In this document: positions 15,001 through 18,000 of the stretch, one piece after another
Numbering within the stretch: the first letter of the stretch is position 1
Layout of the letters: each line of letters begins with the position of its first letter
Sequence record: PV189405.1
Strand: one strand, 5' to 3'
Source: Escherichia phage vB_EcoP_phi349
Length of the DNA: 62,509 nucleotides
Made by a program: the position numbers

Positions 15001-18000
15001 TAGATAAGGTCTTGGTTATTAATACATCAGTATATGATTAGTTGAAGCGAGTCTTTAATATTCATTTAAAATGTCTAAAAAGATGTATTATTAAAAAGTT
15101 TAGCGTGTTATCTGAATACAGGATATCTTAAATGAAGAGTATAGCAACACTGGTTGTGTGTGCAATCTCCGGGATTGCCTGTGTAAATTTATCTGCACAT
15201 GCAGCAGAAGGAAACCATACAATTTCTCTGGGGTATGCGCACTTTCAGTTTCCGGGACTGAAGGATTTTGTAAAGGATGCGACTGCTCATAACAGGGAGA
15301 CTTTCAGTCATTTCGTCAACAGAAACTACTTTTCTTCATTGGGCGAATATACAGATGGTCGGGTCAGTGGATATGAAGGCAAGGATAAAAATCCACAGGG
15401 CATTAATATCAGGTATCGCTACGAGATAACGGATGATTTTGGCGTTATCACCTCTTTTACATGGACGCGTTCTCTCACTAACTCACAGACATTTATTGAT
15501 GTGCAGTCAGCCGATCATACCAGGAAGATTAAGAATCCGGCAGCTTCTGCCAGAACGGATATCAGGGCGAATTACTGGAGTCTGTTAGCGGGGCCTTCAT
15601 GGCGGGTTAATCAGTACATGAGTTTATATGCGATGGCAGGGATGGGCGTTGCTAAAGTTAGCGCTGACCTGAAAATTAAGGACAATATTAACAGTAGTGG
15701 CGGATTTTCTGAAAGCAACAGCACGAAAAAAACCTCCCTTGCGTGGGCTGCAGGTGCACAGTTTAACCTGAATGAGAGTGTTACACTGGATGTGGCTTAC
15801 GAAGGTTTCGGCTCTGGCGACTGGCGCACGAGTGGCGTTACTGCTGGCATTGGCCTGAAATTCTGACCTGTATCCGGTAACCGTTTACTACCCGCTGTGA
15901 TGGCGGGTTTTTTATTGCCCGTACAGGGCAAAAACCGTAAATTATGCGTGGGTGCCTTTCGGCTGATGGCTGGAGGGTGAACCTGAAGGCCTGATGTGGA
16001 AAGGCCCCGAGTCAACTTAACGTTAACCCGAGGCCCTAACACTTCGTACCTTAAGCAAGTAGAAGGTTAGCGCCTCTCTGTAAAAGGAGTCAAGCGCTAT
16101 GTCGCAAAAATCGCTTATCACCGTCACAATTTGCATGACGGTTATCTTCACCATCTGGATGTTGCACGGTTCACTGTGTGAGTTCCGGCTGAATTTGTGG
16201 GGAGCGGAGTTTGCGGCGTTCTTACAGTGTAAGCAGTAGGAAAACCGCGACGGGGACGAGAGTCCCCGTCAACTGGTTGCTGAGGTTCAGCCGATATGGC
16301 ACCCGTTTCAGGTGAGAGAATGAACGATAAAATTCTCTGGTATATGCAGCGTGTTGTGAGAAATTCCCGCAACCCTGAATTTATGAATGAAGTTAAAGAC
16401 GCCTGCCTTAAAAAGCAGGCGTTTTGTTTTGAGGCACCTGATGGCTTTTTGGTGCTGCGTTCTGTGCTCAGTGCTGATGGTATCCCTTATGTTCTGGTGT
16501 TGCTGGGCGTGTGTACGGGGAGTAACAGCGTTGAGCGTTACCTGCCGGAGGTGAAGACATTAACCCATCTGGCTGGCGGACGCTGGGCTGAGTTCCATAC
16601 GGCAAGGCGGGGATTTATCCGGCTGGGAAAACGACTGGGCTTTGAGCGAATGCCGGATGATGAGGATGGCTTCATGGTGTTCAGGATAGCGGTCTGACTG
16701 CTACAGTTTTCATCATTGTGTTTAAACCAACATTGTAATTCACATTCTGACCCTGCTCCGGCAGGGTTTTTTGTTATCCAGGGGGCCATTATGGGTGGAA
16801 GTAAAGGCGGTGGTGATACCAAAGTAAAACCAACAGCAGCGCAAATAGCACAGGAAGAAGTGGCCTGGAAAGGGTGGCAGGATTACAAAAATATCCTCCG
16901 CCCGGCTGAAGATAACTTCATGGAAAAGGTCGATGACCTGAACAGTGAGCAGCAGTACGACAATATTGCTGGCACCACAAATCTGGGGTATCAGAAACAG
17001 TTTGGCGAAGCACGGAAGGAGCTTGCGGGTAATCTTGCTCAGTCCGGCGTTGACCCATCCAGTGGTCGTTTTAATGCGGTAATGAATGCGAACCAGAGTG
17101 ACCAGGTAACCGGGCAGATTGACACAACCACACGGGGGCAGGTATCGCAGGCAGATAAGTATGTTGCCGGGCTACAGGATGTTGCTGCTCTCGGTTCTGG
17201 TCAGAAGGCGGATGCGTTACAGAGTTTTAACTCTCTGGCAGACAGCAGTCTGGCAAAAGCTAAATCGGATGCACAGGCGGCGTTTACGAAACAGCAGGGG
17301 CGAGCCTCTCTTGTTGGCGCTGGTCTGGGTGCGGCAGGTGCATATGCGATGCATAAGGCTGGCGGTAGCGGAGGAAGTGGCGGTGCTAAAACACCTGGCA
17401 CCGGCGCTAATGCCATTCAGCATCAGGCTCAGAACTGGAGACTGTAATTATGGAGTATGGCAAATACGAAACTCTCGCAAGGGCTGGTTATTCAGGAGCA
17501 GACCGCCCACAGGGTGACTGGCAGACGTCAGCAGCGCTGACACGCCAACAATACGACGACTGGCGAACCAGATATTTGCCCCGCGTGGCAAGGCTGGCTG
17601 ACCTTGGGGAGAACAACAGTCTGATGAATGCACAGCTTGCACGGGTGGGAGGCCTTGCCACTTCCAGTCTCCGTACAGCGCAGATGGCGCAGGATAACCA
17701 GATGGCGAGATACGGGGTAAACCGCCCGGATAATCCCGACAGTAATAACGCTGGGGTTACGTAATGCCCTGGCAATTGCTGGCGCGAAAAATGGTATCCG
17801 TGAAGCCGAACAGGATCGCCAGATGAATATTCTGACGGGGGCTTCTGCACCGGCAAGACAGAAACTGAGTGTTGGCGGCCAACTGGTGGCAGCGTAAGGG
17901 GGCAATATGGGATACGGTTTACTGGATATTGCAAATCAGTCGCGGCGTGAGGCATTACAGGGAATAAGTGACGCAGACAGACGACGTGAAGAAATTGAGG

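What the first reader, a model, noticed from the sequence alone, without database searches (positions are those of the whole stretch)
16085..16275. Hok/Gef-like type I toxin gene missing from the ORF track
A 46-codon ORF (16099..16239) with a good RBS encodes a single TM helix followed by SLCEFR...GAEFAAF, the Hok/Gef signature. A 9-bp stem-loop (GACGGGGAC/GTCCCCGTC) follows the stop, reminiscent of the hok mRNA 3' fold-back element. A type I toxin-antitoxin next to lom would be a lysogen-expressed addiction or abortive-infection moron.
Basis: partly seen in the sequence, partly recalled or inferred. Interest (0 to 1): 0.6.

Follow-up and report, generated by a model that had tools for sequence, protein, structure and literature searches.

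The report
Second Hok toxin cassette in Stx phage
The small ORF next to lom is a genuine, already catalogued Hok/Gef membrane toxin gene with its antisense-RNA control region, carried by Shiga-toxin phages; it is ordinary, except that it lacks the usual "mok" leader frame.

Summary
ORF 16099..16239 (+) encodes a 46-aa Hok/Gef-family peptide: Pfam PF01848 scores 33.2 bits against a cut-off of 22, and PHROG 251 gives E 2.8e-24.

The ORF sits in a ~355-nt cassette (15950-16304) with the main hok/sok RNA features:
- The 5' element (15950-15966) pairs with a 3' fold-back element (16287-16304).
- A covarying hairpin follows the stop codon (16249-16270).
- A ~60-nt antisense Sok-like RNA is predicted at 16057->~15996. 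Its -10 hexamer (TAACCT) is the same hexamer that was mutated to silence sokW.

It corresponds to the hairpin that would cap the 3'-processed mRNA.

The window is a Stx-converting phage, 100% identical to phi346, 933W and Sp5 over this region. RefSeq already annotates the gene as "Hok/Gef family protein". The exact peptide is entry 72_1589 in a 2025-26 Hok catalogue and is reported toxic there. It is distinct from the published hokW-sokW, so 933W and Sp5 carry two hok loci.

One real departure from the R1 model: there is no mok frame here, and none is conserved across 9 homologous cassettes.

Verdict: already known, low interest.

The parts
15915..15943 (+). Putative hok promoter: -35 TTGCCC (15915-15920), 17-nt spacer, -10 TAAATT (15938-15943). 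It sits just after the lom terminator (15890-15915).
   Evidence: Read from the sequence. The -10 pattern TAnAnT is kept in all 9 aligned cassettes (invariant T4 A5 A7 T9). The generic scan does not call it. This part is inferred.
15950..16304 (+). Full-length hok-type mRNA, which is also the conserved mobile cassette.
   Evidence: The Rfam RF01794 model aligns from its position 1 at 15950. BLAST homology in 1750 E. coli genomes spans 15941-16304 in unrelated contexts. The fold is -155.4 kcal/mol, z = -6.6, with the 5' and 3' ends paired.
15950..15966 (+). tac-like 5' element, GGGUGCC UUU CGGCUGA.
   Evidence: It pairs with 16287-16304 in the MFE structure. Its best partner anywhere downstream is the 3' site in 12 of 12 cassettes and in the hokW positive control.
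15990..16009 (+). Local alternative partner of tac (..GUGGAAAGGCCCC). It also contains an 8-codon uORF start (ATG 15994).
   Evidence: It is the second-best partner of the 5' end at -21.8 kcal/mol in 10 of 12 cassettes. RNAalifold uses it in the consensus structure, and so does the predicted truncated RNA. All columns are invariant, so there is no covariation evidence.
15996..16057 (-). Predicted Sok-like antisense RNA of ~60 nt. It has a 5' single-stranded tail (16057->16038), a 16-bp hairpin (16037->16001) and a UUUCC tail.
   Evidence: The fold is -30 kcal/mol, z = -5.5. In 12 homologues the minus-strand fold is about 6-15 kcal/mol more stable than the plus strand, and the hairpin sequence varies while pairing is kept. 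The shape matches annotated sokW. The start site is inferred by analogy.
16064..16093 (-). Putative Sok-like promoter: -35 TTGACT (16093->16088, overlapping the hok SD), 18-nt spacer, -10 TAACCT (16069->16064).
   Evidence: AGGTTAGCGCCTC is invariant in the 9-sequence alignment. The same hexamer precedes the annotated 5' end of sokW by 7 nt in 933W. The pro-less primer YO-421 alters that hexamer, and the pro-less construct is toxic. The generic scan does not call it.
16076..16089 (+). hok Shine-Dalgarno AAGGAG (16084-16089), paired with CUCU (16076-16079) in a small hairpin.
   Evidence: MFE and consensus structures. The SD unpaired probability is about 0.2 in full-length RNA and 0.2-0.38 in truncated RNA.
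16099..16239 (+). hok-family toxin CDS, 46 aa.
   Evidence: Pfam PF01848, 33.2 bits against a cut-off of 22. PHROG 251, E 2.8e-24. RefSeq WP_000078907.1. Identical to catalogue entry 72_1589, reported toxic.
16249..16270 (+). Post-stop hairpin GACGGGGAC-GAGA-GUCCCCGUC, the likely 3' end of the processed mRNA.
   Evidence: Compensatory changes occur at 4 pairs (alignment columns 318/342, 319/341, 325/335, 326/334). Its role is inferred from the R1 model.
16277..16285 (+). 3' strand (UUGCUGAGG) of a second long-range helix. It sequesters 16049-16058 (CCUUAAGCAA), which lies in the target of the Sok-like 5' tail.
   Evidence: MFE structure. Covariation at columns 120/355 (UA:4, CG:4), 130/346 and 131/345. 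Target accessibility rises once this strand is removed.
16287..16304 (+). fbi-like fold-back element UCAGCCG AUAU GGCACCC.
   Evidence: It pairs with 15950-15966. There are 7 different 3' sequences among 12 cassettes, and all pair with the 5' end at -22 to -31 kcal/mol, against shuffles at -11 to -14 (sd about 3).

Best explanation
This is a cis-antisense type I toxin-antitoxin cassette of the Hok/Gef family, carried as a moron downstream of lom in a Stx-converting phage.

Shown here:
- The peptide is a Hok-family member.
- The RNA has a 5'/3' fold-back helix, a second long-range helix that covers the antisense target, a covarying post-stop hairpin and an SD-sequestering hairpin.
- The opposite strand of the leader folds into a Sok-shaped RNA.

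Inferred by analogy with hok/sok of R1 and hokW-sokW:
1. A weak constitutive promoter makes a stable ~355-nt mRNA (15950-16304). Closure of 15950-15966 on 16287-16304 keeps it inert to translation and to the antisense RNA.
2. Slow 3' trimming back to the hairpin at 16249-16270 removes the fbi element and the 16277-16285 strand.
3. The 5' end then refolds onto 15990-16009, and the leader at 16038-16058 becomes accessible.
4. An unstable ~60-nt antisense RNA (16057->~15996) pairs there and the duplex is destroyed, probably by RNase III.
5. When antisense synthesis stops (prophage loss, host shut-off by an infecting phage, or prophage induction), the 46-aa peptide is made. It inserts into the inner membrane, collapses membrane potential, and kills or lyses the cell.

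Unlike R1, no mok leader frame exists. Hok must therefore be translated from its own strong SD, and how the SD hairpin opens is unresolved.
For: - Family models: Pfam HOK_GEF above cut-off and PHROG 251 at E 2.8e-24. The Rfam hok/sok leader model hits 15950-16112 at E 9e-6.
- Annotation: 'Hok/Gef family protein' in RefSeq.
- Published toxicity: the identical peptide, 72_1589, was cloned, and the preprint reports all tested homologues toxic except three others.
- Fold-back: the full-length fold has z = -6.6 with the ends paired. The fbi site is the best partner of the 5' end in 12 of 12 cassettes.
- Covariation: 17 pairs carry compensatory changes.
- Antisense strand: a strand-specific hairpin followed by a U-rich tail (UUUCC) is kept in 12 homologues. 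The -10 hexamer is the same one mutated in the sokW pro-less construct.
- Refolding: predicted truncation raises target accessibility in 7 of 7 cassettes.
- Selection on the CDS: the 46-codon frame is intact in all 12 cassettes, and one pair shows 7 synonymous and 0 non-synonymous codon changes.
- Mobility: cassette boundaries equal the mRNA ends in unrelated genomic contexts.
Against: - No transcript, processing or antisense RNA has been observed for this locus in anything I could access.
- The generic promoter scan calls neither promoter.
- The Rfam score (35.6 bits) is below the gathering score of 59.
- There is no mok frame, and the hok SD is predicted to stay largely paired even in the truncated RNA. 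The translation-activation step therefore has no support.
- There is no terminator directly after the fbi element. The next one is at 16399-16435, so the true 3' end is unknown.
- Published toxicity used an artificial SD and an arabinose promoter, not the native leader.
Confidence: 0.85

Rival explanations
1. Silent or decaying hok relic. The toxin ORF and RNA folds persist, but loss of mok has uncoupled translation, so Hok is never produced from the native mRNA and the cassette is selectively neutral cargo.
For: The mok start is replaced (GAGGCCCUAAC here, against GAGGCUCAAUCCAUG in hokW), and in-frame stops block any upstream frame. The SD stays mostly paired in predicted full-length and truncated RNAs. 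The K-12 hokA locus is interrupted by IS150 within mokA.
Against: - All 12 diverged cassettes keep the 46-codon frame, the strong SD, the fold-back pairing and the antisense hairpin.
- Compensatory RNA changes and a 7-synonymous, 0-non-synonymous codon comparison indicate ongoing selection.
- The cassette is present in 1750 of 5426 complete E. coli genomes, in many contexts.
- Absence of mok is shared by the whole clade, not a private lesion.
Confidence: 0.08
2. Toxin gene controlled only by mRNA folding and processing. The minus-strand hairpin is just the mirror image of a sense-strand structure, and no functional antisense RNA exists.
For: The promoter scan finds no sigma-70 match. The -35 is weak in most homologues (TTGCTC). 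There is no expression evidence.
Against: The hairpin is perfect only on the minus strand, where its G-U pairs become C-A mismatches on the plus strand. This gives a 6-15 kcal/mol advantage in 12 of 12 homologues. The hairpin is followed by a U-rich tail (UUUCC). The -10 hexamer is invariant and matches the hexamer mutated in the sokW pro-less construct.
Confidence: 0.05
3. Chance ORF in an intergenic spacer, with an unrelated terminator hairpin.
For: The ORF is short (46 codons) and was not annotated in the original 933W and VT2-Sakai records.
Against: Pfam above cut-off, PHROG at E 2.8e-24, conserved frame, RNA covariation and published toxicity.
Confidence: 0.005

Closest known systems
hok/sok of plasmid R1 (mechanistic paradigm; summarised in PMC9841398)
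   Same: - A membrane peptide of about 50 aa with the conserved Cys-Glu motif.
- A long 5' leader and 5'/3' (tac/fbi) closure of the full-length mRNA.
- A stable hairpin just after the stop codon.
- A cis-antisense RNA with a single-stranded 5' tail plus one hairpin, encoded in the leader.
- An antisense -35 that overlaps the hok SD.
   Different: - Only 30% peptide identity, and 46 aa rather than 52.
- No mok frame. The position of the mok AUG reads AAC, and stops close all upstream frames.
- The antisense target ends about 27 nt upstream of the hok SD and covers no start codon.
hokW-sokW of Sp5/933W (Takada et al. 2021, PMC8621323)
   Same: Same phage lineage, same family and the same antisense -10 hexamer TAACCT with the same geometry. 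hokW-sokW is an experimentally shown type I TA that accelerates lysis and doubles phage release after induction.
   Different: - It is a different locus. In 933W it lies at 58460-58734 on the other strand, about 13 kb from this one (~45.5-45.9 kb).
- HokW is 51 aa, in the HokD-like cluster 35, with 37% identity over 35 residues.
- It has mokW.
- Its primer sequences are absent from this window.
Hok catalogue cluster 72, entry 72_1589 (Escalera-Maurer et al., bioRxiv 10.1101/2025.08.07.668861)
   Same: Identical 46-aa peptide. It belongs to a high-abundance cluster, was cloned as LRP157, and is reported toxic on arabinose induction.
   Different: That study analysed only the CDS. It explicitly did not analyse mok, Sok or the mRNA structure, and it does not discuss the lom-adjacent Stx-phage context.
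HokA (E. coli K-12; NCBIfam NF007290)
   Same: It is the nearest curated model, and it shares the C-terminal AAFL(A/Q)CK motif, the post-stop hairpin and a GCACCC 3' element.
   Different: The score is 38.4 bits against a cut-off of 89, so this is not HokA. hokA has an in-frame mokA extension, interrupted by IS150 in K-12.

Membership tests
Hok/Gef toxin family (Pfam PF01848) | The peptide scores above the curated gathering threshold of the family HMM. | tested here: met
   33.2 bits against a cut-off of 22, E 4e-8, covering residues 8-44 over model positions 6-42 of 42. PHROG 251 'MokW-like host killing' gives E 2.8e-24.
Hok/Gef toxin family (Pfam PF01848) | A peptide of about 50 aa with an N-terminal hydrophobic helix, followed by the conserved (S/D)LCE motif and a short polar tail. 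| tested here: met
   46 aa. Mean Kyte-Doolittle hydropathy of residues 5-22 is 2.0-2.9 in 12 homologues. S25, C27 and E28 are invariant in an 8-peptide alignment.
Hok/Gef toxin family (Pfam PF01848) | Toxic to E. coli when expressed. | not testable with these tools
   Literature only. The identical peptide 72_1589 is among 45 tested homologues, of which only 19_179, 60_1482 and 69_1540 were non-toxic (preprint).
hok/sok-type type I TA locus (R1 organisation) | Long-range 5' (tac) to 3' (fbi) pairing that closes the full-length mRNA. | tested here: met
   The MFE structure pairs 15950-15966 with 16287-16304. This is the best partner in 12 of 12 cassettes, with 7 different 3' sequences.
hok/sok-type type I TA locus (R1 organisation) | A cis-encoded antisense Sok RNA transcribed from within the leader. 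| tested here: inconclusive
   For: a strand-specific hairpin with a U-rich tail (UUUCC), and an invariant -10 hexamer identical to the one mutated for sokW. Against: no call by the generic promoter scan, and no expression data.
hok/sok-type type I TA locus (R1 organisation) | [quoted passage not shown] | tested here: not met
   No ATG, GTG or TTG start lies upstream of hok in any frame that reaches it, and TAA 16081 and TAG 16060 interrupt the hok frame. No frame is conserved among 9 cassettes.
hok/sok-type type I TA locus (R1 organisation) | 3' processing to a shorter, active mRNA that ends at a stable hairpin. | not testable with these tools
   The hairpin at 16249-16270 is present and covaries, and the predicted refolding is consistent. 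Processing itself was not observed.
Rfam RF01794 (sok / hok leader model) | Score at or above the gathering threshold. | tested here: not met
   35.6 bits against 59. E is 9e-6 over the full model length, at 15950-16112. The window-wide gathering scan gives no hit.
hokW-sokW locus of Sp5/933W | Same gene: the 51-aa HokW (MKQQKAM...DYESEK) with mokW. | tested here: not met
   The primer sequences are absent from the window. It sits at a separate position in 933W. Identity is 37%.
HokA equivalog (NCBIfam NF007290) | Score at or above the curated cut-off. | tested here: not met
   38.4 bits against 89.

The most novel reading that the evidence does not exclude
The cluster-72 Hok cassettes may form a mok-independent branch of the hok/sok family. 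In this reading the antisense RNA, which binds about 27-80 nt upstream of the hok SD and covers no start codon, controls Hok in one of two ways: by blocking a ribosome standby or loading region, or by triggering decay alone. That resembles tisB/IstR-1-type control (my own knowledge) rather than R1-type translational coupling. In 933W/Sp5 this second cassette may also act alongside hokW-sokW in lysis timing, which would mean the published single-deletion phenotypes understate the contribution of Hok toxins to phage and Stx release.
Probability: 0.3. Interest if true: 0.45.

Novelty: already known. Interest (0 to 1): 0.2.

Why it matters
Practical value:
- Older Stx-phage records (933W, VT2-Sakai) leave this gene unannotated, so pipelines that rely on them miss a toxin gene.
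- Because 933W and Sp5 carry two Hok loci, the published delta-hokW-sokW phenotypes (lysis delayed by about 40 min, phage yield halved) were measured with this second cassette still present.

Scientific value is modest. The clade-wide absence of mok gives a natural test case for how a Hok mRNA can be activated and repressed without translational coupling.

Tried and rejected
- Published hokW: I searched the window for its primers and 5' end and found none. This is therefore not hokW, and 933W has both loci.
- Generic promoter scan: zero hits. I relied on homology to sokW instead.
- Rfam at gathering threshold over the whole window: no sok hit. The only hit is sub-threshold.
With an alignment, the species-representative scan returned only 4 loci: two Salmonella and two oddly labelled contigs.
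- mok search: I looked in all three frames, including non-canonical starts. An ATG in the invariant GAUGUGG (15994) opens a 60-70-codon frame in L007. GTG and other starts open comparable frames in L009 and L011. In the window it gives only 8 codons, so I rejected it as a conserved mok.
- K-12 hokA as a leader comparator: not usable, because IS150 interrupts it.
- Expression evidence in EHEC RIBO-seq and RNA-seq papers and their supplements: nothing for this ORF.
- Literature searches for lom+hok+933W and for WP_000078907: no hits.
- Whether cluster 72 was already in T1TAdb: could not be determined, because the figure is not held and the table is truncated.
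Full report
**Observation.**
The ORF is present exactly as described. It runs 16099..16239 on the + strand, starts with ATG and has 46 codons, encoding MSQKSLITVTICMTVIFTIWMLHGSLCEFRLNLWGAEFAAFLQCKQ. AAGGAG at 16084-16089 lies 9 nt upstream of the ATG. The stem-loop GACGGGGAC / GAGA / GTCCCCGTC occupies 16249-16270.

**Identity of the window.**
The region 15870-16330 is 100% identical to Escherichia phage vB_EcoP_phi346 at the same coordinates, and to 933W, VT2-Sakai (Sp5) and many other Stx-converting phages. In total 197 phage records match. The cassette also occurs in 1750 of 5426 complete E. coli genomes, with up to 9 places per genome.

Annotation varies by record:
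- phi346 labels the ORF 'MokW-like host killing'.
- RefSeq labels it 'Hok/Gef family protein', WP_000078907.1.
- The original 933W record leaves the interval between lom and L0129 unannotated.

**Family membership of the peptide.**
- Pfam HOK_GEF scores 33.2 bits against a cut-off of 22.
- PHROG 251 gives E 2.8e-24.
- The nearest NCBIfam model is HokA, far below its cut-off at 38.4 vs 89 bits.
- Identity is 30% to Hok of R1 and 37% to HokW.
- Twelve diverged cassettes all keep an intact 46-codon frame. The second codon position is the least variable and the helix stays hydrophobic. One cassette at ~93% nucleotide identity differs by 7 synonymous and 0 non-synonymous codon changes.
- A simple motif scan finds this to be the only Hok-like ORF in the window.

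**It is not the published hokW.**
Takada et al. (PMC8621323) characterised hokW-sokW of Sp5. Their primers define a 51-aa HokW (MKQQKAM...DYESEK). Those sequences are absent from the window.

In 933W, hokW, mokW and sokW are annotated at 58460-58734 on the opposite strand. The present cassette lies at about 45.5-45.9 kb. 933W and Sp5 therefore carry two Hok loci, and this window carries only the lom-adjacent one.

**It is already catalogued.**
The identical peptide is entry 72_1589 in the Hok catalogue of Escalera-Maurer et al. (bioRxiv 10.1101/2025.08.07.668861). Cluster 72 is a 'high abundance cluster'. The peptide was cloned as LRP157 and tested. The text states that only 19_179, 60_1482 and 69_1540 of 45 homologues were non-toxic. 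The authors state that they did not analyse mok, Sok or the mRNA structure.

**RNA anatomy.**

*Cassette boundaries.* Homology between unrelated genomic contexts spans window 15941-16304. The contexts are:
- after lom in Stx phages;
- after ogr of P2-like prophages;
- after gpJ in another lambdoid prophage;
- near ykgM;
- on a plasmid.

The Rfam hok-leader model (RF01794) aligns from its first position at 15950, at 35.6 bits and E 9e-6, which is below the gathering score of 59.

*Fold-back.* RNA 15950-16305 folds at -155.4 kcal/mol, z = -6.6. In the MFE structure GGGUGCC..CGGCUGA (15950-15966) pairs with UCAGCCG..GGCACCC (16287-16304). In 12 of 12 cassettes the best partner of the 5' 16 nt anywhere downstream is this 3' site. 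The same is true for hokW, used as a positive control. Seven different 3' sequences all retain pairing, at -22 to -31 kcal/mol, against -11 to -14 (sd about 3) for shuffles. This is the tac/fbi closure of the R1 model (PMC9841398).

*Other helices.* RNAalifold on 9 cassettes gives 102 pairs, of which 17 carry compensatory double changes. These include:
- four pairs of the post-stop hairpin;
- a second long-range helix between 16049-16058 and 16277-16285.

The hok SD pairs with CUCU at 16076-16079.

**Antisense RNA.**
On the minus strand, 16057->~15996 folds into a ~20-nt single-stranded 5' tail, a 16-bp hairpin and a UUUCC tail, at -30 kcal/mol and z = -5.5.

In 12 homologues the minus-strand fold is about 6-15 kcal/mol more stable than its plus-strand mirror. 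This is because G-U pairs on the minus strand become C-A mismatches on the plus strand. The hairpin sequence varies while pairing is kept.

Upstream lies TTGACT (16093->16088), an 18-nt spacer and TAACCT (16069->16064). AGGTTAGCGCCTC is invariant in the alignment. The same hexamer lies 7 nt upstream of the annotated 5' end of sokW in 933W. Comparing primer YO-421 with the wild-type sequence shows that it is the hexamer altered in the 'pro-less' construct, which abolished antitoxin activity.

A generic sigma-70 scan calls no promoter here. The antisense gene is therefore supported by homology and structure, not by a consensus match or by expression data.

**No mok.**
No ATG, GTG or TTG lies upstream of hok in any frame that reaches it. 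The hok frame is closed by TAA 16081 and TAG 16060. At the position of the mok start, hokW reads GAGGCUCAAUCCAUG. From memory, R1 reads GAGGCAUCCCUAUG. This clade reads GAGGCCCUAAC, and that frame ends at TAG 16068. No upstream frame is conserved among 9 cassettes. [quoted passage not shown]

**Predicted switch.**
Truncating the RNA after the post-stop hairpin makes the 5' end refold onto 15990-16009. That site is its second-best partner, at -21.8 kcal/mol. The unpaired probability of the antisense-tail target rises from 0.22-0.35 to 0.43-0.58 in 7 of 7 cassettes. The hok SD stays mostly paired, at 0.2 rising to 0.2-0.38. The model therefore explains inertness and antisense access, but not how translation starts.

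**Function.**
This is inferred. By analogy, Hok is produced when antisense synthesis stops. Possible roles are:
- prophage addiction;
- exclusion of infecting phages;
- help with lysis after induction, as shown for hokW-sokW.

None of these has been tested for this locus.

**Verdict.**
The finding is real and correctly interpreted, but it concerns a known, annotated and catalogued gene family member. Residual interest lies in the mok-less architecture and in the presence of two Hok loci in 933W and Sp5.

Noticed in passing
window 16399-16435: A strong intrinsic-terminator-like hairpin (GACGCCTGCCTTAAAAAGCAGGCGTTTTGTTTT), flagged on both strands, lies inside the annotated ORF 16296/16320-16697. 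There is no terminator directly after the hok fbi element, so hok read-through transcripts might end here. This is unexplained.
   Followed up: no
window 16296-16697: The downstream hypothetical protein probably starts at ATG 16320, not 16296. The PHROG 610 model (E 2.6e-70) covers residues 9-133 only, which puts the fbi element (16287-16304) in intergenic DNA.
   Followed up: partly
window 15994-16020: An 8-codon uORF (MWKGPEST*) starts in the invariant GAUGUGG of the hok leader. In L007 the same ATG opens a ~60-codon frame that overlaps hok. In L009 and L011 comparable frames open from GTG and other starts. The frame is not conserved, so it is probably not a mok equivalent.
   Followed up: partly
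933W AF125520: ~45.5-45.9 kb and 58460-58734 (loci L003, L004): 933W and Sp5 carry two Hok-family loci about 13 kb apart. The published delta-hokW-sokW strains would still contain the lom-adjacent cassette.
   Followed up: partly
L007, L008, L011 (after ogr); L012 (after gpJ); L010 (near ykgM): The same ~365-bp cassette sits at several different prophage moron positions and on a plasmid. The homology boundaries coincide with the predicted mRNA ends, which suggests the transcription unit moves as a module.
   Followed up: yes
window 32073-32255 and 45341-45528 (minus strand); 33238-33354: There are two copies of the C4 antisense RNA plus isrK pair, about 13.3 kb apart. An ALIL pseudoknot (an IS3-type frameshift signal) lies next to the first copy, which suggests an IS insertion or duplication in the early region.
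   Followed up: no
window 55137-55385, 56794-57053: Three tRNA genes, STnc100 and the anti-sRNA AsxR are present, which is the usual late-region set of Stx2 phages.
   Followed up: no
L013 (DEQA01000038.1, 'Planococcaceae' MAG) and L015 ('Vagococcus sp.' contig): Two contigs labelled as Firmicutes carry this enterobacterial Hok cassette at 76% peptide identity. This is probably contamination or mis-binning.
   Followed up: no
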